Assembly (NCBI GenBank): GCA_964440545.1
Contig: CAYTSO010000001.1
Coordinates: 63,827-127,826 of the forward strand
Direction: 5' to 3'
Source: an uncultured Candidatus Saccharibacteria bacterium
GTDB taxonomy: Bacteria > Patescibacteriota > Minisyncoccia > Phycocordibacterales > UBA9973
DNA length: 64,000 nt
A program made the position numbers and the translations under genes. Shown piece by piece: positions 1-39,535 of this stretch (position 1 is its first letter; every line of letters starts with the position of its first letter). Below the pieces are notes generated by a model that was not told the origin of the DNA, made no database searches, and saw only the letters and a program-made list of their open reading frames with translations.

Positions 1-270
1 ACTCATGAGTTTAAGGTTGGAGAAGTTTTAAAAGGGGAAGTTGTAAAAATAGCCGATTTCGGTGTTTTTGTTGAATTAAATCCGTTTACCGATGGTATGG
101 TGCATATTTCCGAGATAGCGCCATTTCGCGTAGAGAGAATTAGCGATATAATAAAAGAAGGCATGATTGTGCCAGTTAAAATCATAAGAATTGATCCAGA
201 AAGAGAAAAAATCAGTTTGTCTATTAAAGAAGCGGATAAAGATTTTTTCAAAAATAATGGAACCCATTAG
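1..270 (+). CDS. pnp: Polynucleotide phosphorylase, C-terminal S1 domain (5'-truncated by window edge)
   Basis: Frame-1 translation GEVLKGEVVKIADFGVFVELNPFTDGMVHISEIAPFRVERISD...KISLSIK is a canonical S1 RNA-binding domain closely resembling the PNPase C-terminus; stop TAG at 268-270. Confidence 0.7.
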   Translation, partial: THEFKVGEVLKGEVVKIADFGVFVELNPFTDGMVHISEIAPFRVERISDIIKEGMIVPVKIIRIDPEREKISLSIKEADKDFFKNNGTH

Positions 271-19334: not shown

Positions 19335-19455
19335 AGTGTTTTTTTATTAAATTTTATTAAAAAAAGCCCCGCTTTGACAGGACTCATATGAGAGCAGTGT
19401 AGCACAATCCACACCCTAACGCAAATTGTTTTTATTAGTATAGTATAATTATTCC

Positions 19456-22400: not shown

Positions 22401-22899
22401 TGTTGATGGTCCATCAGGTAATCCAAATAGCAGAATGTTTTATCTTTATCATGACGAACTTGAGCTGGCAAATGCGCAAGTTCGGCCACAGTGCCCTGCC
22501 GGTGAATATTGGAATGGTTCAACTTGCGCTCTGGCGGTAGCTGATTATTGGACATACGATGATGTCACCTGTGGTTCCGATTGTAAAAAAATAGCTGAAT
22601 GCAGAGATGGCACCGACGAAGGCGAGGACGAAAATTGTATACCATGTAGCCCAGAACAAGCTGGGGTTTGCGAAGGGGGAATTCCAGTTCAATCATGCGC
22701 ACCTGGAGAAGGGGCATGTCCCCTTAATGGACCGCTTTGTTCATCTCCACCAAATCACCTAAGTCCTTGTATTCCAGGAAGCACTTCAAGTGCAATAAGC
22801 AGTTCTACTTCTAAATGGACATGGACTTGTACTCCTGCCGTGGGTGATGTTTCTTCCTGCACAGAGTGGAAAAAGCAGCCAATCATTATTGAAGACTAG
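19456..22899 (+). CDS. Giant secreted/surface protein 1 (1147 aa): N-terminal signal/anchor, Thr/Ser/Asn-rich, two CARDB-like modules, two paired-Cys Ig-like repeats, C-terminal Cys-rich module with KKQPIIIED tail
   Basis: Signal MKKNFHSKFFVLAILLIIIISG; CARDB-like ends ...RVCADKTSISSGGRISESNN...GEQNNCGPW and ...IRVCADKTTSSGGSSINEANDSGTGEDNNCGPW (E-x-N-E-x-NN signature); repeats NPTSCTA(S/T)G.W...TYTYT(I/L)TC at about 20962-21213 and 21223-21489; 20 Cys in the last 140 aa; TATAAT 6 nt before ATG. Confidence 0.7.
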   Translation: MKKNFHSKFFVLAILLIIIISGLYFSLRNATADSVMVEYGEDDVMENTTVSIATRDETSSPWRKSPITYNRTLNGSINDSLQIDQQPMRYKTTDEGIYKPAKASFTIPTAYSTKSFSLKKCFTPTTGITRPLFWSLNVYGTTLNYSANQNIYLDTFSVSGSSPASSAVVDSTTYGCPDPIKSKPPMPYTYGSTWYGSPWYSSTGLSSITANFCSDGTLNIQTYLNGVPYTATWSLPSSLTISGPDLTKNNWIINGSLVPTDLAPSSLINATKTISSGTSFTSGVYSINTARKGGAYTASYSGAGPNNSTLGSITYSSGGSSVSFTCSANQNKYITLNFWSNVDLTGDPDSSIQLLDPSTNNPLTNITTTTSNIKLSGKVKNIGTVSTGTGESSYFQNFFEIDYQKDPPVLGIEAVASNVNTPLAANATATTTVTSSGTIYFPYAGTSRVRVCADKTSISSGGRISESNNITPPNPPGGPVPPGTGEQNNCGPWTTVNVTSGASAISVDLTASPISMTLPTNSTTLAWTTTGTPDSCTASGSWSGAKTVSGGTENKTGLVAGTYTYTITCSKTGVTDATDSVSVVVSAGAVPIVTISANPTSGTVGSVSPTITYSATNNPTSCTATGDWVNLSPPTATGTSQTQAQGVLSTIKTYTYTLTCTNSYGTGSPASATVNVTAESSVPILTDTSITNITSANATLGGTVFSWGTPAQGKRGTCWSASDIPTPLTFTTMPAGCALKDTVNTGSTGNFSHVRTISPTRPLYVRAFAGNDSGIGWGPQKAIAADLTAGAVDVSGEIVSGVDRTYTATISNIGNFTTGSSFHNFFQKATVSAAVAPTLPQGDSRITDLPYTSTSPEPLSALNSGGTATVTSPSVAFSSSGSIRVCADKTTSSGGSSINEANDSGTGEDNNCGPWTDVEVDTTGALSASSPCEINVNNECTTTLTWNIPNPLPDVETAVTTPDHVTVPGTSAVSGMTTYTFIVDGPSGNPNSRMFYLYHDELELANAQVRPQCPAGEYWNGSTCALAVADYWTYDDVTCGSDCKKIAECRDGTDEGEDENCIPCSPEQAGVCEGGIPVQSCAPGEGACPLNGPLCSSPPNHLSPCIPGSTSSAISSSTSKWTWTCTPAVGDVSSCTEWKKQPIIIED

Positions 22900-22908
22900 T
22901 AAGTTAGT

Positions 22909-22945
22909 AAAAAATCCCCTTGATCTCAATCAGGGGGATTTTTGG
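22909..22945 (+). terminator. Rho-independent terminator (ATCCCCT-loop-AGGGGAT + T-run)
   Basis: aaaaaatccccttgatctcaatcagggggatttttgg. Confidence 0.7.
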
Positions 22946-23060
22946 GTTGTTGTGGATTACTTTATAAATATTTTTTTATTTCTTGTTATAATAGATCTAC
23001 TAATTCCATTAAAATATAATATATGGAGTAAAGTTTTGATTATTAATTAATTATTAAAAA

Positions 23061-26000
23061 ATGAAAAAATATTTTCAATTCAAACTCGTTTTGTTTTTTG
23101 TTCTCTCGTTATTAATCACTGGTGCTTTTTATTTTAATTCATCAGACAGTGTACGGGCTGCGTGTAACGAAGGAACGACTCGAACTGGGGTAGTTGACTC
23201 GATTACAGCCTCGGCTTCTGGCACAACAGTAAGTGGAATTGTAACACTTGCTCCTATGCCAGCAACCTGCAGTGGGGGGTATTATGAAGAAGATGGAACC
23301 GTTAAATTAAAGTTGGTTGATTTAAACGAGAATCCAATAAGTGGATATGAAGACTCTCTCGAGGGGCTAAATGGAGTATTCCATGATGGTGATAATTCAT
23401 ACTCAATGAGCATCTCCGGGTTGCCTGCTGGTTCGTACAAAATGAAAGCCGTACCATGCAATCCAATAACCACTTGCGGTGCAGCGAAATTTTCTGATCC
23501 CTTCACCTATACTCCGCCACCTGCTACTTACACGGTAACTGGGACCGCCGGATCTGGGGGCACAATTTCCCCTTCCTCAAGAACAGTGAATTCCGGTCAA
23601 ACAACGACATTTACCGTTACTCCAAATTCTGGGTATACCGCTTCTGCTTCTGGTTGCGGTGGTTCTCTTTCTGGCACGACCTATACTACTGGAGCAATAA
23701 CATCAAATTGTACAGTAACTGCAACCTTTACTGCGGCCTCCGTTCCTCCAACTCCTACCAATCTGACTGCTACTCCTGGTGCTTGCGGAACGGGAACCAT
23801 AAACGTTTCTTGGACTGCTTCGAGCGGAGCAACTGGTTATATTCTTTTAGATAACGGAAATACTATTTACACAGGAGCTAATACTTCTTATTCCCATACT
23901 GGGTTGAGCGCAGGATCATCTCATGCATATAATGTTGCGGCGACAAATGCCAATGGCACATCAGGAAATACAAGTACAGTTTCTGCTTTTGCCCCATCAG
24001 CTTGTAGTGCTCCCGTCGTCACTCTTTCCGCTAAAATAATTCTTTCCAACGGTGCGGAGTTTAGTCGTGCTTGGCAAAAAATGCCGGTTACCTTTAAAAA
24101 TTCTACAGATAAAATTAGGCTAACCTGGAACGCAACCAATTCCCCGACTTCTTGTACTGCCGATGGAGATTGGTCTGGAACAAAAACATCTAGCGGGACA
24201 GAAGACATTCCTCCATCTACTCCGAAAATTTATAATTTTACTTTGACTTGTACTGGCGCTGGTGGGTCTGACTCTGAAACCGTGCAAGTAGAAGCAGTTC
24301 CGGATACTAGTATGCCAAATCTTGTTCCCGATTTTGCCAGTGTAAACATACCAGATACCATTACCATAGGTGTTCCGGTGACATTAACTGCTAAAGTTAA
24401 AAATACTGGTAGCTCAGCAACGAGCGCGTCTCCTGGTTGGGGAAATAGCAATCTAGGTTCTTATTCTCGCGGTTCTTTTATTAGCGCCTTCTTTATGGCT
24501 ACTCCCTTAAGTGGAGGTACGCAAGCAAACGGAGGGCAATATTTAAGCGATGGGGATCCTGCATTCAAATACAATGTTCCTCCTAATTATCCAAACGAAT
24601 GGTGGTATAATCCTGGAACTTCTCCTTATGGATATGGTATTGCTGGATTACCTTGGGGCAATACGGCTTATCGACTCATGACTTCTCCTATTGCTGCTGG
24701 CGGAACATCTGAAACAGTTTCTACAACTTTTACTTTACCACCAGAGAACCAGCCACCTTTTATTGATTTTTCCGGAACACAAGCAATAACATTTTGTGCA
24801 GATACGGATCAACTTTCTGCGCCTATTGGCGACAACCCAATAGGTATTTTTGAGATTGCTAAACACTATGCTACCGACCCAATTTATCCAACTAGTTCTC
24901 ATACAGAAGTAGATAATTGTACTCCTTGGAAAATTGTGAATGTAACTGGTGGAGTTACTACTTATAGTGTTACCCCAAGTGCGGGAGCAAACGGAACCAT
25001 TTCCCCAAACACACCACAGACAGTTAATTCAGGTGCGACAGCAATCTTTACTGTTACTCCAAATGCCGGATATACAGCTAGTGTCGAAGGAACTTGTGGT
25101 GGATTTTTGGCTGGAACTACTTACACTACTAATCCTGTCCTCGCAAGCTGTACGGTAATTGCCAACTTTACAGCATCACCAAATCCTGATCTGACGGTTC
25201 AATATGACCCAACAACGATAAAAATTCCTGCGAATACCTCGCACACTTTTTCTGCCACAGTACAAAATATAGGGAGTGTTACCACAGGAAGTGCCTTTAA
25301 TAACATGTTTCAGACAGCAACCGGCTTTACTTTAAAGCAAGATGGCACTCCTAATTATGATCTTCCGATTAACCGGCAGGATTATGATGTTGGAACCACC
25401 GCTAGCGCACTAGCGGGCGGTGCCACCCTGGAGATTACAAAAAGCCTTTCATTTTCTCCAGGTACTTACTACGTTAGGGCTTGTGCAGACTTACCTCCAT
25501 ATGATTACGGGGTAGTCCTCAATGAAAATGAAGAAAATAACTGTAACGCTGGTGGTGCCCTTGCCTGGCAGGCAATAGAGGTGGGCCCGGATTTGACAGC
25601 GAGTGCTCCCGTAGCAGACAACTCAGGTCCTTACTTAGCTGGTGACTCAATATCTTTTAGCTCAACAATCGCGAACAGTGGAGTAGGTGATGTTGCTGGT
25701 ACCGTTACTCATATTTTCCAATATGACTATGATATAAACCACGAAAATAACAATGAAGGATTTATTGAAGTAAACACTACCAATGGAATTGTTGAAGGTG
25801 ACAACAAGGATGTTTCAGCGCAAATTCCTACTCAAAGTGATACAATACTTCTTTACATTCGAGTTTGCGCTGACAATGACGCTAACTGGAGCGACTTAGT
25901 GGATGAATCAAATGAGGGCAATAACTGTAGTGTTGCCATTAACGGAGGGTGGACAGTTTTAAACATAACTAGTTCTGTTTCTTGTGGTATTGCAGGAGAT

Positions 26001-26240
26001 CTTTGCCCAATTATTGGCAGTGAATGTGGACAAATCGGAGAATGTCAACCTGATGGTATCTGTGGCGGAACACTTGATCCCGTAACTTGTCCAGTTAATA
26101 ATTGTACAAAAGTTCCCGACACGTGTTCTGGTGGAATTACCCCAGAGTCACTTCCAGACAGCACAGCTAAATTTATTTGGAAATGCGGGGGGTACACCTG
26201 TGAGGTAGAAAAAAAGCAGCCGATTATTATTGAAGACTAA
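23061..26240 (+). CDS. Giant secreted/surface protein 2 (1059 aa): signal peptide, two divergent InlB-B-repeat-like modules, FN3-like module, paired-Cys Ig-like repeat, three CARDB-like modules, C-terminal Cys-rich module with KKQPIIIED tail
   Basis: InlB-B-like: TYTVTGTAGSGGTISPSSRTVNSGQTTTFTVTPNSGYTASASGCGG...CTVTATFTA (about 23523-23735) and TYSVTPSAGANGTISPNTPQTVNSGATAIFTVTPNAGYTASVEGTCGG...CTVIANFTA (about 24960-25175); FN3-like PTNLTATPG...INVSWTASSGATGYIL...YSHTGLSAGSSHAYNVAA (about 23748-23999); CARDB-like ends YVRACADLPPYDYGVVLNENEENNCN, IRVCADNDANWSDLVDESNEGNNCS. Confidence 0.7.
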   Translation: MKKYFQFKLVLFFVLSLLITGAFYFNSSDSVRAACNEGTTRTGVVDSITASASGTTVSGIVTLAPMPATCSGGYYEEDGTVKLKLVDLNENPISGYEDSLEGLNGVFHDGDNSYSMSISGLPAGSYKMKAVPCNPITTCGAAKFSDPFTYTPPPATYTVTGTAGSGGTISPSSRTVNSGQTTTFTVTPNSGYTASASGCGGSLSGTTYTTGAITSNCTVTATFTAASVPPTPTNLTATPGACGTGTINVSWTASSGATGYILLDNGNTIYTGANTSYSHTGLSAGSSHAYNVAATNANGTSGNTSTVSAFAPSACSAPVVTLSAKIILSNGAEFSRAWQKMPVTFKNSTDKIRLTWNATNSPTSCTADGDWSGTKTSSGTEDIPPSTPKIYNFTLTCTGAGGSDSETVQVEAVPDTSMPNLVPDFASVNIPDTITIGVPVTLTAKVKNTGSSATSASPGWGNSNLGSYSRGSFISAFFMATPLSGGTQANGGQYLSDGDPAFKYNVPPNYPNEWWYNPGTSPYGYGIAGLPWGNTAYRLMTSPIAAGGTSETVSTTFTLPPENQPPFIDFSGTQAITFCADTDQLSAPIGDNPIGIFEIAKHYATDPIYPTSSHTEVDNCTPWKIVNVTGGVTTYSVTPSAGANGTISPNTPQTVNSGATAIFTVTPNAGYTASVEGTCGGFLAGTTYTTNPVLASCTVIANFTASPNPDLTVQYDPTTIKIPANTSHTFSATVQNIGSVTTGSAFNNMFQTATGFTLKQDGTPNYDLPINRQDYDVGTTASALAGGATLEITKSLSFSPGTYYVRACADLPPYDYGVVLNENEENNCNAGGALAWQAIEVGPDLTASAPVADNSGPYLAGDSISFSSTIANSGVGDVAGTVTHIFQYDYDINHENNNEGFIEVNTTNGIVEGDNKDVSAQIPTQSDTILLYIRVCADNDANWSDLVDESNEGNNCSVAINGGWTVLNITSSVSCGIAGDLCPIIGSECGQIGECQPDGICGGTLDPVTCPVNNCTKVPDTCSGGITPESLPDSTAKFIWKCGGYTCEVEKKQPIIIED

Positions 26241-26297
26241 TTCTTCGATAAGCTTGGGACAATATTCTTCTGTAGGTTTAGTACGAATTAAAACAAA

Positions 26298-26325
26298 AAA
26301 ATCTCCCTTGTGGGGGATTTTTTTG
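26298..26325 (+). terminator. Rho-independent terminator (ATCTCCC-ttgt-GGGGGAT with one G-U, + T-run)
   Basis: aaaaaaatctcccttgtgggggatttttttg. Confidence 0.65.
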
Positions 26326-26339
26326 TTATACTATATAGG

Positions 26340-28109
26340 ATGGTAATCAACGAAGAACAGTTTAAAAAATCTATTTTAGATTCAGGACTTATTTCGCGTT
26401 CTGAATTTGAGGAAATAGTTAAAAAATCAGAAGCAAGTGATCAGAAAATTGGCGATATTTTGCTTTCTGAAGGAAAAATATCAGAAACTGACCTGAAACG
26501 AATAGAGGCCTTTGTGTTAAGCATACCGTTTGTTGATTTAAATAATCAAAAAATAGAGTCCTCCGTCCTTTTACTTATTCCAGAACCTATCGCTAGAAAT
26601 TACAATATTGTTGCCTATAAAAAAACCGAAAAAACTTTAGAGGTGGCGATGTTGGATGTGGATGATTTGCCGGTAATCGATTTCATCAAAAAACGCTCCG
26701 GACTAAAAATCCTTCCTCGACTTACTGATACTGTTTCCATGAGGTCTGCGCTCGTTCAATATCGGCAAAGCCTGAAGAAAGAATTTCAGGACATTATTGA
26801 AAAAGAGTGTGACGCTATCTCTTGTAAAGATGAAGGGGCGTGGAAATTAAACGGAAAATCTAGTGAGAAATCTGAATCCGAATTGAAACAAATGGCAGAA
26901 GAACTGCCGATTGTAAAAATTGTTGACTCTCTAATTTTTCACGCGATTCTGCAAAACGCTTCTGACATCCACATTGAGCCTGGAGAAAAGAACCTCACTG
27001 TGCGTTATCGAATAGATGGTATTTTGCACGACGCAATGACCCTAGACAAAAATGCCACACTGGGCATAACTGCTCGCGTAAAGGTGTTGGCAAATTTAAA
27101 ACTGGACGAAAAAAGGTTGCCTCAGGACGGAAGATTTAAAACAGAACAAAATGGAGAAAAAGTTTCCTTTCGTGTTTCTACTCTGCCAACTTTTTACGGA
27201 GAAAAAACCGTTATTCGAATTTTGAAGGAAAACATGCACGGGTTTTCTCTGGAGACACTTGGTTTTCACGGAGAAGGGCTAGAAAGAATTCACGAGGCCT
27301 TAAAACAAAAAACAGGAATGATTTTGGCTACGGGTCCAACCGGAAGCGGAAAAACAACCACTCTTTACACGATGCTCGATATTTTGAACAAACCGGAAGT
27401 AAACATTTCCACCGTAGAAGATCCTATTGAGTATCAAATGCCAAGAGTTAACCAGACGCAGGTAAAACCCGAGATTGGCTTAACTTTTGCCAATGGTCTT
27501 CGCTCTTTACTTCGGCAAGATCCAGACATTGTGATGGTGGGGGAAATTCGGGACGGAGAAACTGCCGGTTTGGCGATTAATGCTTCTCTTACTGGACACT
27601 TGGTTTTATCTACCGTGCACACTAATTCCGCTGCTGGCTCGATTCCAAGACTTATTGATATGGGAGCCGAGCCCTTTTTGATAACGGCTACCGTAAAGAC
27701 CATTATTGCTCAGAGGCTGGTGCGTAGACTCGCTCTCAATAAGGAAAAATATTTTTTATCGCCTGATGAAATAAAAAATCTTGCCAAGATTGTTGATTTG
27801 GATAGGGTACTTAATTTTCTCAGAGAAGAAAAAATTGTAGATGAGAAAAGTACTTGGGATAAAATTCCTTTTTACAAAGCAGTAAAGAGCTCAGACTCCG
27901 AAGATGGCTATGGCGGGCGTATCGGCATACATGAAGTATTGGCGGTAACCCAAACAATCAGAGAAATGATTTTGAAGAGTGGTTCGCAAGACGATATAGA
28001 AGCCCAGGCAAAAAAAGAAGGAATGATGACAATGATAGAGGACGGAGTTTTTCAAGCAGTGCTTGGAATGACTTCGTTAGAGGAAGTGTTCAGGGTGGTT
28101 TCTGAATAA
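26340..28109 (+). CDS. pilB: Type IV pilus / type II secretion assembly ATPase (PilB/GspE family)
   Basis: N-terminal T2SSE_N-like domain, Walker A GPTGSGKTTT, Asp box, Walker B DPDIVMVGEIRD, His box LVLSTVHTNSAAGS; ORF-track GTG 26310 lies inside the upstream terminator, so ATG 26340 is preferred (extended -10 TGtTATACT 7 nt upstream). Confidence 0.9.
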   Translation: MVINEEQFKKSILDSGLISRSEFEEIVKKSEASDQKIGDILLSEGKISETDLKRIEAFVLSIPFVDLNNQKIESSVLLLIPEPIARNYNIVAYKKTEKTLEVAMLDVDDLPVIDFIKKRSGLKILPRLTDTVSMRSALVQYRQSLKKEFQDIIEKECDAISCKDEGAWKLNGKSSEKSESELKQMAEELPIVKIVDSLIFHAILQNASDIHIEPGEKNLTVRYRIDGILHDAMTLDKNATLGITARVKVLANLKLDEKRLPQDGRFKTEQNGEKVSFRVSTLPTFYGEKTVIRILKENMHGFSLETLGFHGEGLERIHEALKQKTGMILATGPTGSGKTTTLYTMLDILNKPEVNISTVEDPIEYQMPRVNQTQVKPEIGLTFANGLRSLLRQDPDIVMVGEIRDGETAGLAINASLTGHLVLSTVHTNSAAGSIPRLIDMGAEPFLITATVKTIIAQRLVRRLALNKEKYFLSPDEIKNLAKIVDLDRVLNFLREEKIVDEKSTWDKIPFYKAVKSSDSEDGYGGRIGIHEVLAVTQTIREMILKSGSQDDIEAQAKKEGMMTMIEDGVFQAVLGMTSLEEVFRVVSE

Positions 28110-28135
28110 CCCAGCGTTCCCACTTAAATAATTAA

Positions 28136-29353
28136 ATGTTTTTTACTTATATCGCAAAAACAAAAACAGGGGAAGAAATTGAAGGCGTGATAAATGCTGC
28201 AGATCGTTATGTTGCTGCCCAGGAAATAAAATCTCGTGGCCTAATGCCACTATCTGTTAAAGAAAAGAGAGAAGTTTTTTGGAATATTTCTTCAAAGTTC
28301 TCTAATATTTTTTCTAGAATAAGTGTTAACGAAAAAATTATTTTTACAAAAAATTTGAGCGGAATGCTTCGAGCAGGGCTTTCTCTTTATCGAGCGCTGT
28401 CGGTTTTGGAAAAACAGACTAAAAATCCTAAGTTTAATAAAATTTTATTATCTCTAGCAACTGATATAAATGCCGGTCAGTCTTTTTTTTATGCTCTTTC
28501 AAAATTTCCCGAAGTATTTTCTGGCCTTTTTCTTTCGATGACGAAAGCCGGAGAAGAGTCCGGAAATCTTTCTGGGGCTCTGTCTGATATTGGTTTAAAT
28601 TTAGAAAAGGCCCACTCCTTAACAAAAAAAATAAGAGGAGCGCTTATTTATCCTGGCATCATTCTTTCTGCGATGGTCGTCATTGGTGTTTTAATGTTTG
28701 CTTTTGTGGTTCCAACCCTGGCGAGCACATTCAAAGAGCTTGGGGTCGTTCTGCCTCTTTCTACCAGGATTCTTATTTTCTTTGGTAATTTTTTCTCTAA
28801 TCATTTGATTTTAAGTTTTACTATTATTATTGGCGTTGGTTTTGGTTTATATATGATGCTTCGAGCCAAGTTTATAAGACCTTTTATTGATTTTTTTGTT
28901 ATCAAAATTCCAGTTGTCAGTACTTTAACCAAAGAATTAAACACTGCCCGCACCGCCCGAACAATTTCTTCTCTTTTGCTTGCTGGAGTTTCCCTCGGAA
29001 GAGCCTTGGAAATAACAGAAGATGTGGTCCAAAATATTTATTACAAAAAAGTTCTGGAGAAAGCTAAAGATGAGATAGAAAAAGGCGTTCCGCTTTCTCA
29101 GGCTTTTAAAACAAATATCAAACTTTATCCGATCATGATGGGAGAAATGGTAGAAGTTGGAGAAGAGACAGGCAGACTTTCTGACATGTTGCTGGACATT
29201 TCTTCTTTTTATGAAGAAGAGGTTGAAAGCAAGACAAAGAATCTTTCCACCATTATCGAGCCTTTGCTGATGATTGTTATTGGGTCGGGGGTTGGATTTT
29301 TTGCTATTTCAATGATTTCTCCGCTTTATTCAATTTTAGGAAGCATAGAATAA
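28136..29353 (+). CDS. pilC: Type IV pilus / T2SS inner-membrane platform protein (PilC/GspF family)
   Basis: 405 aa, duplicated T2SSF domains, 3-4 TM helices, conserved GxxL.ALS..F region. Confidence 0.85.
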   Translation: MFFTYIAKTKTGEEIEGVINAADRYVAAQEIKSRGLMPLSVKEKREVFWNISSKFSNIFSRISVNEKIIFTKNLSGMLRAGLSLYRALSVLEKQTKNPKFNKILLSLATDINAGQSFFYALSKFPEVFSGLFLSMTKAGEESGNLSGALSDIGLNLEKAHSLTKKIRGALIYPGIILSAMVVIGVLMFAFVVPTLASTFKELGVVLPLSTRILIFFGNFFSNHLILSFTIIIGVGFGLYMMLRAKFIRPFIDFFVIKIPVVSTLTKELNTARTARTISSLLLAGVSLGRALEITEDVVQNIYYKKVLEKAKDEIEKGVPLSQAFKTNIKLYPIMMGEMVEVGEETGRLSDMLLDISSFYEEEVESKTKNLSTIIEPLLMIVIGSGVGFFAISMISPLYSILGSIE

Positions 29354-29357
29354 TTTT

Positions 29358-29825
29358 ATGAAAAATAATTTTAGAAAAGGAATAAGTGTTATAGAAATTT
29401 TAATTGTAATTGTCGTCCTTGGCATTATATTTTCAATTGTCTTTTCGCAATTTTCTAAAATTAGGGAAAATCAAGTATTGAAAACAGCCGTGAGTGATAT
29501 TTTGTCTAGTTTAAATAAAGCGCAAACGCAAACCTTAGCATCTCTAGACTCTTCTTCTTACGGGGTGCATTTTCAAGCTGACAAGGTTGTAATTTTTAAA
29601 GGCACGATCTTTTCAGAAAGCGATGTTGATAATGAAGAAATAAATATTTTGGCACCTGCAACCATCTCAGACGTAACTTTGTCCGAAGTGAGCGGAAGTA
29701 CCGGCGATATTTACTTTAATCGTCTTTCTGGAATGCCAAATCAGGCTGGTGTTATAACTATCTCTACAGATTCTTTTTCTAAAATTATTACAATTTCAGC
29801 TACAGGCACTGCTAGTGCGAACTAA
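29358..29825 (+). CDS. Prepilin-type (class III signal) pilin/pseudopilin, probable major subunit
   Basis: MKNNFRKG|ISVIEILIVIVVLGII: G-1, Glu+5, hydrophobic N-terminal helix. Confidence 0.75.
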   Translation: MKNNFRKGISVIEILIVIVVLGIIFSIVFSQFSKIRENQVLKTAVSDILSSLNKAQTQTLASLDSSSYGVHFQADKVVIFKGTIFSESDVDNEEINILAPATISDVTLSEVSGSTGDIYFNRLSGMPNQAGVITISTDSFSKIITISATGTASAN

Positions 29826-29877
29826 AAAATGTTCTATTCAATGAATTAACCAAAGCCACGATAAACAAACTTGAATC

Positions 29878-30300
29878 ATGAAAAAGCAAACTACAAACAA
29901 AGGTTTTATGGCTGTCGAAATATTAATTGCGGTTTCAATTATTGTTATTTTTGTTTTGGTTGCCATGACTGTTGCTCAAAAATCTATTTATATTTCTCGT
30001 CAGGCCCTACATGCGACTCAAGCGGCCTTTTTACTAGAGGAAGGGGCAGAAAATACCAGAATTATTCGGGACAATAATTGGGAAGATCTTGTCGCCCTGA
30101 ATACTTCGGAGCAAATAGGAATTTTTAACAGATCGGTTGTTGTTTCTGAAGTAAGCAGAAATGAAATAACTGGAGATATTGGTTCTGGTGTGGTAGACCC
30201 TAGAACAAAACTGATAACAGTTACAGTTTCCTGGCCTGAAGGAGGGCAAACTATAAGCAAAACTTTACAATTTTATGTAGCGGATATTTTTTCAGAATGA
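29878..30300 (+). CDS. Prepilin-type minor pilin/pseudopilin
   Basis: MKKQTTNKG|FMAVEILIAVSIIV: G-1, Glu+5. Confidence 0.7.
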   Translation: MKKQTTNKGFMAVEILIAVSIIVIFVLVAMTVAQKSIYISRQALHATQAAFLLEEGAENTRIIRDNNWEDLVALNTSEQIGIFNRSVVVSEVSRNEITGDIGSGVVDPRTKLITVTVSWPEGGQTISKTLQFYVADIFSE

Positions 30301-30821
30301 AAATTTTTAATAAAAAAGTGAATAGAAAAAAAAGTCCGTCTGCGTTTGGAGGTTACGCTGTTTTAGAATTAATCTTTTACATTACTTTTTTTGCCATTCT
30401 TTCAATTGTTCTCGTCAACGCGATGATAACCATGGCAAAATCATTCAAAGAAACTTCTATTCAAGCAGAGTTGGTTCAAAGCGGAATGATGATGGAGAAA
30501 ATATCTCGGGAGCTTAGACAGGCCGACGATTTTTCTTTTGCTTCAAATATTCTTATTATCAATACAAGAGACGATTTTGACAATTCAAAAACAATAACCT
30601 ACGCCTTTTTTGATTCAAGTGCGCAAATAGAAGATAGTCTTCTTGGAGATTTAGGAAATTTAAATACTCCCAATATTGCAATTATAGATTTTAATTTTAC
30701 GCCAGTCATCACCGCTAAAGGAAAAGCGGCAGTTGTAACGTTAACCGTTAGGTCTAACAACGACACCAGCGAGAGAACAATCACTTTTAACAATACTGTT
30801 GTCCTCCGGGGAAGTTATTAA
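30297..30821 (+). CDS. Prepilin-type minor pilin/pseudopilin
   Basis: ...SAFGG|YAVLELIFYITFF: G-1, Glu+5; start overlaps previous stop (ATGA). Confidence 0.6.
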   Translation: MKIFNKKVNRKKSPSAFGGYAVLELIFYITFFAILSIVLVNAMITMAKSFKETSIQAELVQSGMMMEKISRELRQADDFSFASNILIINTRDDFDNSKTITYAFFDSSAQIEDSLLGDLGNLNTPNIAIIDFNFTPVITAKGKAAVVTLTVRSNNDTSERTITFNNTVVLRGSY

Positions 30822-30832
30822 AAATAAAAATT

Positions 30833-32575
30833 ATGTCAGGATCTAGAAAAATAAAAAAAATTAATTATCAAGCCGGTGCAGCAATGCTTGTTTCCGTGAT
30901 TTTCTTTCTTTTTATTTCCCTGGCTATTATCTTTGGTCTTGTTTCTCCAACGGTGCGAGAATTTAAAATAGCGAATGATTTAATAAAATCCAAGCAAAGT
31001 TTCTTTTTGTCCGAATCTGGAGCAGAGGATATATTTTTTAGATTAAAAAACGCAAAACCAACAAATTCCCCTTCCTTTATTGAGCTTAATGGTAGTACTG
31101 CTACGACCACCATTGCTGATTCTGGTTACAATGAGAAAACGATAACCGCCCTAGGGGATGTCTTTTCCAGACAAAGAGTAAACGAGCTTCTTTTGGGCAC
31201 TGGTACGGGGATTGCTTTCGGCTACGGAGTGCAAGTTGGAACCGGCGGTTTTACCATGGGAAACGGGTCCTCTGTTCAAGGAAGCGTGTATTCAAACGGC
31301 ACAATTGTTGGAGCCGGATCAATTACTGGCACTGCCGTGTCGGCAAACTCTGCCGCTCTTTCCGCCGATCAAGTAAATGGCTCTGGTACTCCTGCATATG
31401 ATATTACATTTGGAAACGCAGACAGCACACAGGATTTTGCCCAAAGTTTTACTGTGAGCACAACAGGGGTGGTTAGTAAGGTTGAATTATATTTTAAAAA
31501 AGTCAGCATACCCTCAAATTTAACCGTTCGAATTGTTTCTGACGACGGAGGGAGCCCGGGTACGACCACTCTTGCTTCTAGTGTTGTTTCTGCCTCTTTA
31601 ATTTCTACTAATTATGGTTGGGTAAACGTGCCTTTTTCTTCTAACCCGGAATTAATATCCGGCACAAATTATTGGATTGTTATTGACGCAGCTACAAATT
31701 CTTCTCGCTATTATGCTATAGGTGCAAATGACAACGGCTACGGAAGTGGAGTTGGCAAAATTGGTAAGTATGGTAACAACTGGAATACCACAAGTCCAGC
31801 TGGATTAGACGGATACTTTAAGTTATATTTGGGCGGGCTAACAGGCCTCATTGACGGGATTATCGTTGGCACAGAGGGCGAGGGTAATGCTTATGCACAC
31901 ACCGTAAACAATTCAAACATTGCGGGCACAAATTATTGTCAGGAAGGAAATAATAATAATAAATCTTGCGATACAAGCTTGCCGGATCCAACGCAGGTCG
32001 CTATGCCAATTTCTGAGCAAAATATCTTAGATTGGAAAAACGAGGCAGCAGAAGGAGGAACACATTTTGGAGACATTACCATCGATGGAATTTCTACTTC
32101 CTTGGGTCCTAAAAGAATTACAGGCAATCTTATTGTCACCAACAATGCCCATCTCACCATGACAGGAAATATTTGGGTTGAGGGGGATATGGATATTAGC
32201 AACAACGCAGTCGTTAGTCTTTCTCCAAGTTATGGCACCTCTGATGGTACCATGATTGTTGATGGCATTATTGATATATCAAACAACGCTATCTTTAACG
32301 GTTCCGGCTCTGAGGGCAGTTATATTATGGCTCTTTCAACCTCAACTTCAACCTTGGCCATTACCTTGGCAAACAACGGTGGAGCTGTAACTCTTTACGC
32401 AGCCAATGGTACGGTAAACCTGGCGAATAATTCTACCGCCAAGGCGCTAAACGGGAAGTATATCAATTTAAATAATAATGCTGTGGTAATTTATGATGAA
32501 GGATTGGCAAACTCCAACTTTGTAAATGGGCCATCCGGTGGATGGAATATCAGATCGTGGAAAGAGGTTAAATAA
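30833..32575 (+). CDS. Large (580 aa) Glu5-less pilin-like protein (GspK/PilX-like candidate tip or adhesin subunit) with beta-helix-like Asn-rich repeats
   Basis: N-term ...INYQAG|AAMLVSVIFFLF: prepilin-like hydrophobic helix but Val at +5; C-terminal repeats NNAHLTMTGNIWVEGDMDISNNAVVSL / IDISNNAIFNGSG / ANNGGAVTLYAANGTVNLANNSTA. Confidence 0.45.
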   Translation: MSGSRKIKKINYQAGAAMLVSVIFFLFISLAIIFGLVSPTVREFKIANDLIKSKQSFFLSESGAEDIFFRLKNAKPTNSPSFIELNGSTATTTIADSGYNEKTITALGDVFSRQRVNELLLGTGTGIAFGYGVQVGTGGFTMGNGSSVQGSVYSNGTIVGAGSITGTAVSANSAALSADQVNGSGTPAYDITFGNADSTQDFAQSFTVSTTGVVSKVELYFKKVSIPSNLTVRIVSDDGGSPGTTTLASSVVSASLISTNYGWVNVPFSSNPELISGTNYWIVIDAATNSSRYYAIGANDNGYGSGVGKIGKYGNNWNTTSPAGLDGYFKLYLGGLTGLIDGIIVGTEGEGNAYAHTVNNSNIAGTNYCQEGNNNNKSCDTSLPDPTQVAMPISEQNILDWKNEAAEGGTHFGDITIDGISTSLGPKRITGNLIVTNNAHLTMTGNIWVEGDMDISNNAVVSLSPSYGTSDGTMIVDGIIDISNNAIFNGSGSEGSYIMALSTSTSTLAITLANNGGAVTLYAANGTVNLANNSTAKALNGKYINLNNNAVVIYDEGLANSNFVNGPSGGWNIRSWKEVK

Positions 32576-32579
32576 GCTG

Positions 32580-32594
32580 TGTTATACTAAAAGT
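32580..32594 (+). promoter_or_regulatory. Extended -10 promoter (TGtTATACT) 6 nt upstream of tpiA ATG; leaderless-type
   Basis: ctgTGtTATACTaaaagtATG. Confidence 0.5.
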
Positions 32595-33362
32595 ATGCGA
32601 AAAAATTTAATTATTGGAAACTGGAAAATGAACCCTCTTACCTTAAGGGAGGCAGAAAGATTGTTTTCTGGCGTGGCGAAGGAGGTTTCTCGTGTTAAAA
32701 ACACAGAGGTAATAATTTGCCCACCTTTTATATTTTTAGATAAACTGAGCAAGATTCGAACCAGTAAAATTAAGCTTGGTGCCCAGAACTCTTTTATTGG
32801 AGACACTGGCGCTTTTACCGGAGAAATTTCAGGAGAGATGCTTTATGAGATAGGAGCAAAATTCGTAATTTTGGGTCATTCAGAAAGGCGAGAACTGGGA
32901 GAAAGCAATGCGGACATTAATCAAAAAATAAAAGCAGCGCTTGTCGCTGGACTTCGTCCGATATTGTGTGTTGGAGAAAATGAACGGGATCAAAATCACG
33001 GTTATTTTAATTTAGTTAAAGTTCAACTAGAGGAATGTCTTGCTGGTGTTTCCAAAAATTCAATTTCTAAAATAACAATTGCCTACGAGCCAGTCTGGGC
33101 TATTTCCAGCACCCCAAATCGCAAAGATGCCTCGGCGGACGATTCTAGGGAGATGAGTATTTTTATTCGGAAGGTGCTCTCAGATAAATTTGGAAAGGAT
33201 GCATCTCGTATAAAAATTATTTATGGCGGTTCAGTAAATGAAAAAGACGCTCAAGAATTTTTGGAAGATGGAGGCATAGACGGATTGCTCGTCGGTCATG
33301 CCAGTTTGGATATGAAAAAGTTTTCAGAAATTATAAAAATATGCGAAACATTAGGCAGATAA
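32595..33362 (+). CDS. tpiA: Triosephosphate isomerase
   Basis: MRKNLIIGNWKMN..., active-site region ILGHSERR, AYEPVWAI; ORF-track start 32526 is upstream of the homology start. Confidence 0.9.
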   Translation: MRKNLIIGNWKMNPLTLREAERLFSGVAKEVSRVKNTEVIICPPFIFLDKLSKIRTSKIKLGAQNSFIGDTGAFTGEISGEMLYEIGAKFVILGHSERRELGESNADINQKIKAALVAGLRPILCVGENERDQNHGYFNLVKVQLEECLAGVSKNSISKITIAYEPVWAISSTPNRKDASADDSREMSIFIRKVLSDKFGKDASRIKIIYGGSVNEKDAQEFLEDGGIDGLLVGHASLDMKKFSEIIKICETLGR

Positions 33363-34408
33363 AAAACTTAAAAGGAAAAACTGTGCTTTTGCGGGTGGAT
33401 TTCAATGTGCCGATTAAAAATGGCAAGGTGGTGGATGATTTCAAAATTGTAAAAGCATTGCCTACAATAAATTTTCTTCTTAAAAAAGGTGCAAAAGTAA
33501 TTTTGATCACGCACCTCGGAAAAGATGGCACAAAAAGCTTAATGCCCGTAATAAAGAAATTTTTTGATATTTCGAAAATCAATAAAGACAAAATAGTCTT
33601 TTTTGAAAATATTAGAAAGTTTCCAGGAGAAAAGAAGAATGATCAAGCTTTTGCAAAAGGACTTGCAATGTTGGGCAATATTTACGTAAATGATGCTTTT
33701 TCAGTTTGTCACAGAGAGCACGCCTCAGTAGTTTCGTTGCCGAAATATCTACCGAGTTATGCAGGTTTTCAGCTCGAGCAGGAAGTAAAAAATCTTTCAC
33801 ATGCCTTGCGAAACCCCAAGCACCCCTTCCTTTTTATTTTGGGCGGGGCGAAGTTTGAAACAAAAGTACCACTGATTCAAAAATATTTAAAATTAGCAAG
33901 TCACGTATTTATTGGGGGTGCGCTTGCTAATGATTTCTTAAAATACAAAGGCTATGAAATAGGCAAATCGCTGGTAAGTGAAAAAAATTTTGGTATTGGA
34001 AAAATTATAAAAAATAAAAAATTGATTTTGCCTATCGACGTCCTTGTGAAGTCCGGGAATAGATTTATAGACAAAAAAGTGGATGCAGTAAAAAAGGATG
34101 AAATAATTTTGGATGTCGGTAAGGACACGACAAGAATGCTGGCTCCTTTAATTAGGGAATCCAAACTAGTTCTCTGGAATGGACCCTTGGGCAAGTATGA
34201 GGATGTCCACGTTGGAAAGGTTGATGAAAAAATCTTGAAACTGGTTGCAGACTCAAAAGCTGAAAGTATCATCGGAGGAGGTGATACCGTAGCTCAGGTT
34301 TCTAAAATGAAAATGAGAAATAAATTTTCCTTTCTTTCTACTGGCGGTGGCGCTACGCTTGATTTTCTCGCTCACGGAACCCTGCCTGGGATTAAAGCTC
34401 TAAAATAA
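33341..34408 (+). CDS. pgk: Phosphoglycerate kinase (compact, 355 aa)
   Basis: RVDFNVP, ALPTI, C-terminal STGGGATLDFLAHGTLPGIKAL; overlaps tpiA end by 22 nt. Confidence 0.85.
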   Translation: MRNIRQIKNLKGKTVLLRVDFNVPIKNGKVVDDFKIVKALPTINFLLKKGAKVILITHLGKDGTKSLMPVIKKFFDISKINKDKIVFFENIRKFPGEKKNDQAFAKGLAMLGNIYVNDAFSVCHREHASVVSLPKYLPSYAGFQLEQEVKNLSHALRNPKHPFLFILGGAKFETKVPLIQKYLKLASHVFIGGALANDFLKYKGYEIGKSLVSEKNFGIGKIIKNKKLILPIDVLVKSGNRFIDKKVDAVKKDEIILDVGKDTTRMLAPLIRESKLVLWNGPLGKYEDVHVGKVDEKILKLVADSKAESIIGGGDTVAQVSKMKMRNKFSFLSTGGGATLDFLAHGTLPGIKALK

Positions 34409-36891: not shown

Positions 36892-37342
36892 TGTGCGGAT
36901 TTATACTGACGGGGCGGCGAGAGGGAATCCTGGTAAGGCGGGGTGGGGAGCCATTTTGTTTTTGGGAGAGAAAATAGTTGAACTCGGTGGTAGGAAAGAT
37001 CATGCGACTAATAACCAAATGGAATTAACTGCGCCGATTGAGGCCCTTAAGTATGTAAAAAAATACAAAACTGGCAATGAAATAGAGATTGTTTCTGATT
37101 CAAAATATGTGATTTTGGGAATTACCGAGTGGATTTTTAATTGGCAGAAAAATAATTGGCGCAACGCGGCGAAAAAACCGGTTTTGAACCGTGAACTTTG
37201 GGAGGAGTTATATAAATTGGCGGAAGAATTAAAACCAAAATGGACTTACGTAAAAGGGCACAATGAAAATAAATGGAACGACCGAGCGGACGAAATCGCC
37301 ACCAGTTTTGCGGACGGCGTGCCAGTAAAATTGAAAAAATAA
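36872..37342 (+). CDS. rnhA: Ribonuclease HI
   Basis: IYTDGAARGNPGKAGWGAIL...NNQMELTA...VSDSKYV...NDRADEIA (DEDD catalytic residues); TTG/GTG start overlapping the GIY-YIG gene end. Confidence 0.8.
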   Translation: MEKTKISVRIYTDGAARGNPGKAGWGAILFLGEKIVELGGRKDHATNNQMELTAPIEALKYVKKYKTGNEIEIVSDSKYVILGITEWIFNWQKNNWRNAAKKPVLNRELWEELYKLAEELKPKWTYVKGHNENKWNDRADEIATSFADGVPVKLKK

Positions 37343-37353
37343 TTGCATTTCAA

Positions 37354-38941: not shown

Positions 38942-39535
38942 TTAGGATGTGGCTTCAATAAAGTTTCTCTCAATAATTTCCCAATTGATGTTTTTGAAGA
39001 ATGCGTCAACATATTTTTTCTTTTCGGAAGTTGGATAATCGTAGACGAAAGCGTGTTCCCACATATCAATGCCCAGAATCCACGAAAGCCCGTTTAATTG
39101 TCCCATATGGTGCTCGTCCACCCAGGTGGAGATGAATTGTTTTGTTTGTTTATCCCAATAAAGCACTGCCCAGCCAGGGCCGCGGGTCATTGCGAGTGTT
39201 TTGAAATTGACCAACCATTTTTCAAACGACAGGTCTTTTTCTATTTCTTTTTTAAATTCAGAATTTTCCGGCAATAGTTTGGTTCCACCCTCTATTGATT
39301 TGAAAAAATACTCATGATTACGCATACCATTAAACTCAAAACCGAATCTTCTTTGTAGTTCTCCAATTACATAAGCATTTTTTTCTGGATCAACCATTAA
39401 CTCGGCAATCTTTTCTGAGATTAGGTTCGTGGACTTCACGTATCCTGTGTAGAGTTTTAGGTGTTCCTCAATGTTTTTCTTTGAGATTTCCTTTAGCTCT
39501 CCTATATTAAATTTTATTTCTTCAAATTTTGGCAT
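38942..39535 (-). CDS. sodA: Fe/Mn superoxide dismutase
   Basis: MPKFEEIKF..HLKLYTGYV...; C-terminal metal ligands DMWEHAFVYDY; extended -10 TGtTATAAT 6 nt upstream of ATG 39535. Confidence 0.9.
   Translation of the reverse strand: MPKFEEIKFNIGELKEISKKNIEEHLKLYTGYVKSTNLISEKIAELMVDPEKNAYVIGELQRRFGFEFNGMRNHEYFFKSIEGGTKLLPENSEFKKEIEKDLSFEKWLVNFKTLAMTRGPGWAVLYWDKQTKQFISTWVDEHHMGQLNGLSWILGIDMWEHAFVYDYPTSEKKKYVDAFFKNINWEIIERNFIEATS

What the first reader, a model, noticed from the sequence alone, without database searches (positions are those of the whole stretch)
26340..32575. Secretin-less T2SS/ComG-like pseudopilus operon with complete E-F-G/H/I/J-K-like order
The gene order is ATPase (PilB/GspE), platform (PilC/GspF), three prepilins with G-1/Glu+5 (155, 140, 174 aa), and then a 580-aa pilin-like protein lacking Glu5. 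This matches the GspE-F-G-H-I-J-K / ComGA-GG logic, with the Glu5-less large subunit at the end as in GspK. No secretin, PilM/N/O, PilT or prepilin peptidase lies in the window, which is consistent with a monoderm envelope. The 4-nt overlaps and 5-12 nt spacers indicate one transcript. Two functions are plausible: DNA uptake (comEC and comM are nearby) and/or export or display of the two giant proteins encoded directly upstream.
Basis: partly seen in the sequence, partly recalled or inferred. Interest (0 to 1): 0.6.

Follow-up and report, generated by a model that had tools for sequence, protein, structure and literature searches.

The report
Pilus motor plus tip-complex operon
This is a type IV pilus operon of an ultrasmall Patescibacteria (CPR) bacterium, ordinary for its lineage: it encodes the assembly motor and the four "starter" pilins that sit at the filament tip, the last a large lectin-like cap protein, but not the main filament subunit.

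Summary
The six genes are real and lie at the stated coordinates. They are a PilB-type ATPase, a PilC/GspF platform, three prepilins with a conserved Gly-1/Glu+5 signal, and a 580-aa pilin-like protein without Glu5. The same six-gene unit occurs in about 60 of 79 Paceibacteria species genomes. The set is not a complete E-F-G-H-I-J-K system. The pilins resemble GspH/FimU, GspI/PilV/ComGE, GspJ/PilW/ComGF and a K/PilX/ComZ-type tip subunit. This match is sub-threshold but consistent across orthologs. No major pilin (G/ComGC/PilA), prepilin peptidase, PilT or PilM/N/O is in the 64 kb window. The 580-aa protein is predicted to have a pilin helix and sheet, followed by a beta-helix carrying a jelly-roll ("choice-of-anchor R") domain. 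That domain resembles phage tail and receptor-binding modules. The two giant upstream genes sit in a variable island (148 bp to 7 kb between nusA and pilB). Each ends in a terminator and has a Sec signal, so they are not pseudopilus cargo. Secretin-less type IV pili, split ComEC and large Glu5-less tip pilins are already described for CPR bacteria, Thermus (ComZ) and cyanobacteria (PilX). This is a new member of a known kind, of modest interest.

The parts
26302..26317 (+). Terminator-like hairpin plus T-run between the giant gene 23061..26240 and pilB. It marks the upstream boundary of the unit.
   Evidence: (stem TCTCCC/GGGGGA, then TTTTTTT) and the sequence. A stronger 15-pair hairpin at 22910-22943 follows the first giant gene.
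26340..28109 (+). PilB-type assembly ATPase (589 aa) with an N-terminal MshEN domain and a T2SSE AAA+ core. The C-terminal tetracysteine motif is absent.
   Evidence: Pfam T2SSE 5e-123 and MshEN 1e-10. NCBIfam PilB 513 bits, GspE 503, ComGA 256, all below their cut-offs. The closest solved relative is Geobacter PilB, 383 bits over the full length, against Vibrio GspE at 327 bits over the C-terminal part only. There are no Cys in the last 200 aa in 44/57 orthologs.
28136..29353 (+). PilC/GspF-type polytopic platform protein (405 aa).
   Evidence: Pfam T2SSF 1e-52 with two repeats. NCBIfam GspF 309 bits and PilC 267 bits, both below cut-offs.
29358..29825 (+). Prepilin 1 (155 aa, G8|ISVIE): a GspH/FimU/FimT-family minor pilin.
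   Evidence: N_methyl, TIGR02532 and TIGR01708 gspH at 6e-7. The Pfam GspH globular domain is hit in 15/37 orthologs (best 1.7e-6) and N_methyl in 33/37. A profile search matches the pilin alpha-1 helices of solved pilins.
29878..30300 (+). Prepilin 2 (140 aa, G9|FMAVE): a GspI/PilV/ComGE-like minor pilin.
   Evidence: Orthologs hit ComGE in 22/40, PilV in 21/40 and GspI in 11/40, all sub-threshold. N_methyl is hit in 20/40.
30297..30821 (+). Prepilin 3 (174 aa, G19|YAVLE): a GspJ/PilW/ComGF-like minor pilin. Its start overlaps the previous gene by 4 nt.
   Evidence: Orthologs hit ComGF in 15/41, GspJ in 9/41 and Verru_Chthon cassette protein C in 11/41, all sub-threshold. AlphaFold2 (pLDDT 84) gives a 58-residue N-terminal helix plus eight beta-strands. 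Foldseek against PDB found nothing significant.
30833..32575 (+). Glu5-less modular tip pilin (580 aa, G15|AAMLV). It has a pilin helix and 4-strand sheet (aa 14-123), then a beta-helix with an inserted jelly-roll 'choice-of-anchor R' domain (about aa 190-315), then more beta-helix and a conserved C-terminal strand.
   Evidence: NF041539 at 2.6e-9. AlphaFold2 pLDDT 82.5. hhalign of aa 4-123 against the prepilin-2 family gives probability 90% and E 1.4e-6. G15 and A17 are invariant. Foldseek: phage baseplate and tail proteins at E 3e-7 to 2e-9 over about 150-300 columns, and ComZ only at E 0.02. The family has 966 50%-identity clusters at E<=1e-30.

Best explanation
The operon encodes the cytoplasmic-membrane core of a secretin-less type IV pilus of a Paceibacteria (CPR/Patescibacteria) cell, together with its filament-initiating tip complex.

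Proposed mechanism:
1. PilB (a hexameric ATPase) docks on the PilC platform.
2. The four pilin-like proteins are inserted into the membrane.
3. The three with Gly-1/Glu+5 are processed by a prepilin peptidase encoded elsewhere.
4. The four assemble, through their N-terminal helices, into a GspH-I-J-K / FimU-PilV-W-X-type priming complex.
5. The Glu5-less 580-aa subunit sits on top because it needs no salt bridge to a preceding subunit and is too bulky to fit in the shaft.
6. A major pilin encoded elsewhere is then polymerised underneath, so the beta-helix/jelly-roll module ends up at the distal tip, where it caps the filament and binds a ligand.

I consider a glycan or cell-surface ligand the most likely target (about 0.4), DNA capture the next (about 0.35), and a purely structural 'plug' the remainder.

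Shown: gene identities, class III signals and their conservation, the predicted pilin fold of the 580-aa protein, its homology to the neighbouring pilin family, conserved six-gene synteny, and absence of other pilus genes from the window.

Inferred: H/I/J/K subunit equivalence, tip location, existence of a separate major pilin and peptidase, and the ligand.
For: - Domain and family hits.
- PilB is nearest to solved T4aP PilB/PilF proteins.
- Gly-1/Glu+5 is conserved in all three pilin families across more than 70 species, and an invariant Gly without Glu5 is conserved in the 580-aa family.
- The AlphaFold2 model shows a 59-residue alpha-1 helix and a 4-strand sheet, then beta-helix and jelly roll.
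- hhalign links its residues 4-123 to the prepilin-2 family.
- pilB and pilC lie co-oriented upstream of the 580-aa gene in 57 and 58 of 61 loci with enough flank. All six genes are found in 57 loci, with median gaps of 0-18 nt.
- In rearranged loci the pilins and the tip gene stay together (L056, L063, L083).
- The jelly roll resembles phage minor-tail, virion-associated and CenC-like carbohydrate-binding modules, with 53 viral hits at E<=1e-3 and phi812 baseplate proteins in PDB.
- Some genomes carry tandem alternative tip paralogs (L017), and family members exist without the jelly roll. This fits a swappable ligand-binding head.
- Literature: secretin-less T4P with PilB/C/M/N/O/T/D is widespread in CPR (PMC6744442, PMC8672522). 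Large tip pilins lacking a PilD signal and carrying accessory domains occur in Saccharibacteria (PMC11623550). ComZ (PMC6561018) and cyanobacterial PilX (10.64898/2026.02.12.705559) are beta-solenoid tip pilins.
Against: - No major pilin, prepilin peptidase, PilT or PilM/N/O was seen. The rest of the genome could not be read, so 'encoded elsewhere' is an assumption.
- The I- and J-like assignments rest on sub-threshold hits that mostly cover the N-terminal helix. Foldseek of the prepilin-3 model found no solved pilin.
- The ComZ structural match is weak (E 0.02, rmsd 23 A), and a profile search of PDB sequences found nothing.
- Whether the C-terminal strand rejoins the pilin sheet, as in ComZ, could not be checked because no coordinates were available.
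- The tip protein is more conserved (median 57% identity) than the three small pilins (32-42%). That is unusual for a host-specific adhesin and fits a universal ligand such as DNA.
- The tip protein is acidic (pI 4.8), which does not favour DNA binding.
Confidence: 0.78

Rival explanations
1. It is a dedicated competence (ComG/ComZ-like) pseudopilus. The filament exists mainly to capture extracellular DNA. The 580-aa tip pilin is the DNA receptor, replacing ComEA, which is often missing in CPR. DNA is handed to the ComEC channel encoded 5 kb downstream, and RecJ and RNase H process it.
For: - recJ, rnhA and comEC(N) lie downstream in 45-46 of 53 loci with enough flank.
- comM, recO, ssb and recA are also in the window.
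- The tip protein is as conserved as housekeeping genes, as expected for a universal ligand.
- ComZ is a precedent for a beta-solenoid tip pilin that binds DNA without positive patches (PMC6561018).
- CPR bacteria lack nucleotide synthesis, and ComEA is found in only 31% of CPR genomes (PMC6744442).
Against: - The ATPase is a full-length PilB type, not ComGA (256 bits against a cut-off of 300, core only).
- There is no ComGC-like major pilin.
- The conserved block also holds tpiA, pgk, HIT and sod, so the linkage may be plain synteny. It is lost in several lineages that keep the pilus unit (L037, L044, L054, L056).
- The tip protein is acidic (pI 4.8, net charge about -12).
- Its head resembles carbohydrate-binding and phage receptor-binding modules.
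- In Saccharibacteria, deleting the non-essential T4P-2 genes did not reduce competence (PMC11623550).
Confidence: 0.3
2. It is a self-contained minimal pseudopilus. No separate major pilin exists. Prepilin 1, the first pilin gene after the platform gene (the position of GspG/ComGC), is the repeating subunit of a short stub that only displays the 580-aa head at the cell surface, without PilM/N/O or PilT.
For: - The gene position of prepilin 1 matches gspG/comGC.
- No other class III ORF lies within 10 kb of the tip gene in about 60 related loci, or anywhere in the 64 kb window.
- Prepilin 1 has the highest Gly+Ala+Ser+Thr (GAST) content of the three (34.8%), a trait linked in the literature to surface-exposed pilins (PMC11623550).
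Against: - Prepilin 1 carries a GspH/FimU-type globular domain (15/37 orthologs), which marks minor, not major, subunits in known systems.
- Related groundwater Paceibacteria-type genomes are reported to encode PilM and PilO (PMC8672522).
- CPR genomes commonly hold many pilin genes (PMC6744442).
Confidence: 0.15
3. It is a type II secretion-like pseudopilus that exports or displays the two giant proteins encoded directly upstream.
For: Only adjacency and co-orientation in the window. Homologs of the giant proteins sit upstream of pilB in about 19 close relatives.
Against: - There is no secretin, GspC/L/M or GspG.
- CPR cells lack an outer membrane (PMC6744442).
- Each giant gene has its own terminator-like hairpin and a Sec-type signal peptide.
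- The nusA-pilB island ranges from 148 bp to 7 kb and holds unrelated genes (DsbB, DUF4430 and others) in other species.
Confidence: 0.03

Closest known systems
Core minor-pilin / minor-pseudopilin priming complexes (T2SS GspH-I-J-K; T4aP FimU-PilV-PilW-PilX)
   Same: There are four consecutive pilin genes in H-I-J-K order. The first three have Gly-1/Glu+5, and the last is the largest and lacks Glu5. Family-level hits go to GspH, to GspI/PilV/ComGE and to GspJ/ComGF.
   Different: All hits are below curated cut-offs. There is no adjacent major subunit and no PilY1. The K-position subunit carries a beta-helix plus jelly roll instead of GspK's alpha-helical insert.
Thermus thermophilus ComZ and cyanobacterial PilX (beta-solenoid tip pilins)
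   Same: Each is a pilin helix and sheet joined to a bulky beta-solenoid. Each has a non-canonical (Glu5-less, not PilFind-like) N-terminus, is encoded last or near last in a minor-pilin cluster, and is too large for the shaft (PMC6561018; 10.64898/2026.02.12.705559).
   Different: There is no detectable sequence similarity and only a weak Foldseek match (E 0.02). An extra jelly-roll 'choice-of-anchor R' domain is present. The insertion topology is unverified and DNA binding is untested.
Saccharibacteria (TM7x) type IV pili T4P-1/T4P-2 with PilX1/PilX2
   Same: They belong to the same phylum-level group and the pilus is secretin-less. The largest minor pilin lacks a PilD-type signal and carries a jelly-roll (PilX1) or propeller (PilX2) head proposed to be lectin-like. 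The pilus genes lie next to recombination genes (PMC11623550).
   Different: The TM7x loci include PilM/N/O, PilT, PilD and a major pilin next to PilB/C, and this operon has none of these. The tip family here is a different, Paceibacteria-wide family.
ComG competence pseudopilus operon (comGA-GG) of Firmicutes
   Same: Both belong to monoderm-type cells. The gene order is ATPase, platform, then pilins, with the last pilin-like gene lacking Glu5. There are no PilM/N/O in the operon. The small pilins hit the ComGD/E/F models weakly.
   Different: The ATPase is a 589-aa PilB type with an MshEN domain, not the short ComGA. There are four rather than five pilin-like genes, and there is no ComGC-type major pilin.

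Membership tests
Type IV pilus (T4aP-like) machinery | PilB-type assembly ATPase (T2SSE core plus N-terminal domain) | tested here: met
   T2SSE 5e-123 and MshEN. Full-length match to Geobacter PilB at 383 bits. It falls below the NCBIfam equivalog cut-off (513 against 676).
Type IV pilus (T4aP-like) machinery | PilC/GspF platform protein | tested here: met
   T2SSF 1e-52, two repeats.
Type IV pilus (T4aP-like) machinery | Pilins with a class III signal (Gly-1, Glu+5, hydrophobic alpha-1 helix) | tested here: met
   Three ORFs carry the motif. It is conserved in all 72-75 orthologs recovered.
Type IV pilus (T4aP-like) machinery | Major pilin, prepilin peptidase (Peptidase_A24), PilM/N/O, PilT | tested here: not met
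   None is in the 64 kb window or within 10 kb in the related loci. The rest of the genome could not be read. The literature reports these genes in CPR and Paceibacteria-type genomes (PMC6744442, PMC8672522).
Type II secretion system | Secretin GspD, GspC/L/M and major pseudopilin GspG | tested here: not met
   There are no such domains in the window, and no pilin with a GspG-level hit (the first pilin scores 22.8 bits against a cut-off of 88.9).
ComG competence pseudopilus | ComGA-type ATPase and ComGC major pilin | tested here: not met
   ComGA model scores 256 bits against a cut-off of 300 and covers only residues 207-472. ComGB scores 140 against 240. ComGC is hit by only 3/41 orthologs of prepilin 3.
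Core minor pilin set (H-I-J-K type) | Four clustered pilin genes: H-, I- and J-like with Glu5, and a K-like largest subunit without Glu5 | tested here: inconclusive
   The order, sizes and Glu5 pattern are met. The H-like domain is found in 15/37 orthologs. The I- and J-like hits are consistent but sub-threshold. The fold search of the J-like model was negative.
Core minor pilin set (H-I-J-K type) | Physical assembly into a tip complex that primes polymerisation | not testable with these tools
   This needs multimer modelling or experiment.
ComZ / PilX-type beta-solenoid tip pilins | Pilin fold fused to a bulky beta-solenoid | tested here: met
   AlphaFold2 model: helix 14-72, strands 81-123, then beta-helix, jelly roll and beta-helix. 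The N-domain is homologous to the neighbouring pilin family.
ComZ / PilX-type beta-solenoid tip pilins | [quoted passage not shown] | tested here: inconclusive
   Foldseek against ComZ gives E 0.02 and probability 0.44. There is no sequence hit. Topology and DNA binding could not be tested.
Tad / archaeal-type filament systems | TadA/FlaI-type ATPase and TadB/C platform | tested here: not met
   TadA family 51.5 bits and FlaI 57.7 bits, against PilB 513 bits.

The most novel reading that the evidence does not exclude
The 580-aa tip pilin family, which is highly conserved (median 57% identity, 966 clusters at E<=1e-30), may be the missing extracellular DNA receptor of Paceibacteria. It would substitute for ComEA, which most CPR genomes lack. 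It would be displayed by a minimal PilB-PilC-four-pilin pseudopilus that works without a major pilin, PilM/N/O or PilT and feeds the split ComEC encoded 5 kb downstream. That would be a streamlined nucleotide-scavenging machine specific to ultrasmall bacteria.
Probability: 0.12. Interest if true: 0.65.

Novelty: new member of a known kind. Interest (0 to 1): 0.3.

Why it matters
Type IV pili are thought to be central to how ultrasmall CPR bacteria attach to partners and scavenge DNA. Experiments exist only for Saccharibacteria. This locus defines the conserved Paceibacteria version: motor, platform, a four-pilin priming set and a well-conserved lectin-like tip protein. It gives a concrete, expressible candidate (residues about 40-580) for the ligand-binding head. 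It does not change the current picture of these systems, and it removes the more exotic idea of a secretion system for the neighbouring giant proteins.

Tried and rejected
- Exact look-up of the 580-aa protein in the contig index found nothing, although an identical NCBI sequence exists (P0001).
- Profile searches of the three small pilin families against PDB sequences matched only the N-terminal helix of pilins, so they gave no H/I/J discrimination.
- Foldseek of the prepilin-3 model against PDB gave no hit below E 0.07.
- A profile of the tip family against PDB sequences gave zero hits.
A second homolog search was needed.
- Rfam found no RNA family in the window.
- The T2SS reading was rejected: no secretin, GspC, GspL, GspM or GspG.
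- The Tad/archaeal reading was rejected on ATPase scores.
- The ComG reading was rejected as membership because the ATPase type is wrong and there is no ComGC.
- 'Giant proteins as cargo' was rejected on terminators, Sec signals and the variable island.
- I could not test whether pilD, pilT, pilM/N/O and a major pilin exist elsewhere in the genome.


Full report
**Observation**

The + strand between 26340 and 32575 carries six tightly packed ORFs.
- The first (ATG at 26340, 589 aa) has a T2SSE ATPase core (E 5e-123) and an MshEN N-domain. The ORF formally opens at a GTG at 26310, which lies inside a hairpin.
- The second (28136..29353) is a two-repeat T2SSF platform protein.
- Next come three small ORFs of 155, 140 and 174 aa. 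Their N-termini read RKG|ISVIE, NKG|FMAVE and FGG|YAVLE, each followed by about 20 hydrophobic residues.
- The last is a 580-aa ORF reading YQAG|AAMLV..., with no Glu at +5.

A regular-expression scan of every possible start in all six frames found no other class III-like ORF in the 64 kb window.

The spacers are 26, 4, 52, -4 and 11 nt.

**Organism and conservation**

The 580-aa protein has 763 detectable relatives in the 90%-clustered protein collection. The named ones come from Candidatus Nomurabacteria, Paceibacterota and Minisyncoccia, that is, CPR/Patescibacteria. A scan of species-representative genomes returned 79 loci.

ORF calling and BLAST against the window proteins gave these results:
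- pilB and pilC lie co-oriented upstream of the 580-aa gene in 57 and 58 of 61 loci with enough flank.
- All six genes are present in 57 loci, with median gaps of 0-18 nt.
- The wider block nusA(-) / pilB pilC pilin1 pilin2 pilin3 tip / tpiA pgk HIT(-) recJ rnhA comEC-N sod(-) comEC-C is conserved. Here HIT is a HIT-family gene.
- Gly-1/Glu+5 is retained in each small pilin family in all 72-75 orthologs.
- In the 580-aa family, Gly15 and Ala17 are invariant and position +5 is always hydrophobic.

**Which subunits are encoded**

- Prepilin 1: its orthologs hit the Pfam GspH globular domain in 15 of 37 cases and N_methyl in 33 of 37.
- Prepilin 2: its orthologs hit ComGE (22/40), PilV (21/40) and GspI (11/40).
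- Prepilin 3: its orthologs hit ComGF (15/41), GspJ (9/41) and Verru_Chthon cassette protein C (11/41).

These hits are below curated cut-offs and mostly cover the N-terminal half. Their pattern is nevertheless the H-I-J order, followed by a large Glu5-less protein in the GspK/PilX/ComGG/ComZ position.

The operon therefore encodes the four 'core minor pilins' but no major subunit.

Pfam annotation of essentially all other genes in the window shows no prepilin peptidase, PilT, PilM/N/O or secretin. No further pilin genes lie within 10 kb in the roughly 60 closer relatives.

**The ATPase**

- NCBIfam scores are PilB 513 bits, GspE 503, ComGA 256 (core only), TadA-family 52 and FlaI 58. None reaches an equivalog cut-off.
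- Among solved structures the best full-length matches are Geobacter and Myxococcus PilB and Thermus PilF (369-383 bits). Vibrio GspE matches only over the C-terminal 400 residues (327 bits).
- It is a PilB-type extension ATPase, not ComGA, and not Tad or archaeal.
- Unlike the GspE/PilB proteins I recall, it has no cysteines in the C-terminal domain. The same holds in 44 of 57 orthologs. The tetracysteine comparison rests on memory.

**The 580-aa protein**

- AlphaFold2 with a 29-sequence alignment (pLDDT 82.5) predicts a 59-residue N-terminal helix (14-72) and a four-stranded antiparallel sheet (81-123). This is a pilin 'lollipop'. It is followed by beta-helix, a beta-sandwich (about 190-315, the NCBIfam 'choice-of-anchor R' domain, E 2.6e-9), more beta-helix, and a conserved C-terminal strand.
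- hhalign aligns residues 4-123 with the whole prepilin-2 family (probability 90%, E 1.4e-6). The alignment includes a shared SxQ..L.E.G.E motif, so the N-domain is a true pilin paralog.
- Foldseek against PDB gives phage phi812 baseplate and mycobacteriophage central-fibre proteins (E 3e-7 to 4e-5 over about 190 columns). It also gives CBM6 and PHR-type sandwiches, and only a weak match to Thermus ComZ (E 0.02).
- Against predicted viral structures there are 53 hits at E<=1e-3. These are mostly phage minor tail, virion-associated and CenC-like carbohydrate-binding proteins, at 17-25% identity over 150-190 residues.
- The family is large: 966 50%-identity clusters at E<=1e-30. It is also modular. 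Versions of about 420 aa lack residues about 178-333, and others are longer.
- One genome (L017) has three tandem paralogs, and another (L079) has a second pilin set.
- The protein is acidic (pI 4.8) and is 40% Gly+Ala+Ser+Thr (GAST), a composition linked to surface-exposed pilins (PMC11623550). It is better conserved (median 57% identity) than the small pilins (32-42%).

**The giant proteins**

- Both have Sec-type signal peptides and are Cys-rich, with 30 and 28 Cys.
- Each gene is followed by a terminator-like hairpin, at 22910-22943 (15 pairs) and at 26302-26317 plus a T-run.
- The nusA-pilB interval is a variable island ranging from 148 bp to the window's 7,006 bp, the largest seen.
- In other species the island holds DsbB, DUF4430 and other genes.
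- They are lineage-specific surface-protein cargo, not substrates of a T2SS-like machine. Such a machine would in any case have no outer membrane to cross in CPR cells (PMC6744442).

**Mechanism**

The best-supported reading is that PilB and PilC, with a peptidase and major pilin encoded elsewhere, assemble a secretin-less type IV pilus. The H-I-J-K-type complex encoded here primes and caps that pilus. The 580-aa subunit forms the distal cap and ligand-binding head.

- The phage-tail-like jelly roll, the modular family architecture and the tandem alternative tips favour a glycan or cell-surface ligand.
- The high conservation, the ComZ precedent and the downstream recJ-rnhA-comEC block keep DNA capture as a serious alternative.
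- The comEC linkage is embedded in a block that also carries glycolytic and other housekeeping genes. It is lost in several lineages that keep the pilus unit, so it is weak evidence.

**Comparison with the literature**

- Secretin-less T4P (PilB, PilC, PilM/N/O, PilT, PilD), ComEC without its beta-lactamase fusion, and disulfide-bond enzymes near pilins are all described as CPR hallmarks (PMC6744442). PilB/C/M/O, ComEC and SOD are reported for groundwater Paceibacteria-type genomes (PMC8672522).
- In Saccharibacteria TM7x, the largest minor pilins (PilX1 with a jelly roll, PilX2 with a propeller) lack a PilD signal and are proposed to be lectin-like tip proteins (PMC11623550).
- ComZ (PMC6561018) and cyanobacterial PilX (10.64898/2026.02.12.705559) are GspK-like pilins with a beta-solenoid, proposed to be tip caps.
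- The present locus is therefore a new, uncharacterised member of a known kind.

**Verdict**

This is an ordinary system for its lineage, with one useful specific: a conserved, expressible candidate tip adhesin or receptor for Paceibacteria. Interest is 0.3.

Noticed in passing
window 45537..49037 (+): The isoleucyl-tRNA synthetase (1166 aa) carries a histidine-phosphatase domain (PF00300, E 7e-35) at residues 504-667, between the two stretches of the class I catalytic domain. This is an unusual insertion.
   Followed up: no
window 37273..38856 (+), 38942..39571 (-), 39529..40419 (+): ComEC is split into a DUF4131+Competence gene and a separate metallo-beta-lactamase gene, with an Fe/Mn superoxide dismutase on the opposite strand between them. 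The arrangement is conserved in most related loci. The unfused ComEC is already reported as typical of CPR (PMC6744442).
   Followed up: partly
window 19334..26340 (island between nusA and pilB): This is a variable insertion hot spot. In the window it holds two Cys-rich (30 and 28 Cys) secreted giant proteins of 1147 and 1059 aa, each with its own terminator. In relatives the interval is 148 bp to 5 kb and holds divergent giant homologs or DsbB/DUF4430 genes.
   Followed up: partly
window 32575..34408 (tpiA, probable start 32595; pgk): Triosephosphate isomerase and phosphoglycerate kinase follow the tip-pilin gene. They are co-oriented, with no terminator and a gap of about 19 nt (median 33 nt across 51 loci). 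Glycolytic genes may therefore be co-transcribed with the pilus operon.
   Followed up: partly
window 26340..28109 (PilB C-terminal domain): The window protein has no cysteines where GspE/PilB ATPases normally have a zinc-binding tetracysteine motif (comparison from memory). 44 of 57 orthologs have no Cys in the last 200 residues. The MshEN c-di-GMP motif model scores below its cut-off (24.7 against 38 bits).
   Followed up: partly
L017:9383-14244; L079:7051-12744: One relative has three tandem paralogs of the tip pilin (445, 579 and 603 aa, 42-46% identical, the shortest lacking the jelly roll). Another has a second set of large pilins after the first. This suggests interchangeable tips.
   Followed up: partly
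window 7043..8647, 10059..10625, 49041..49622, 59315..59761, 61174..62205: The window is dense in DNA-processing genes: comM (Mg-chelatase-like), a LexA-like S24 peptidase, recO, ssb and recA, besides recJ, rnhA and comEC. This is probably just the gene content of a small genome.
   Followed up: no
window 49678..51612 (+), 191..1168 (+), 8728..9705 (+): Three sizeable ORFs (644, 325 and 325 aa) have no Pfam hit at E<=1e-5. The 644-aa ORF has an N-terminal membrane anchor.
   Followed up: no
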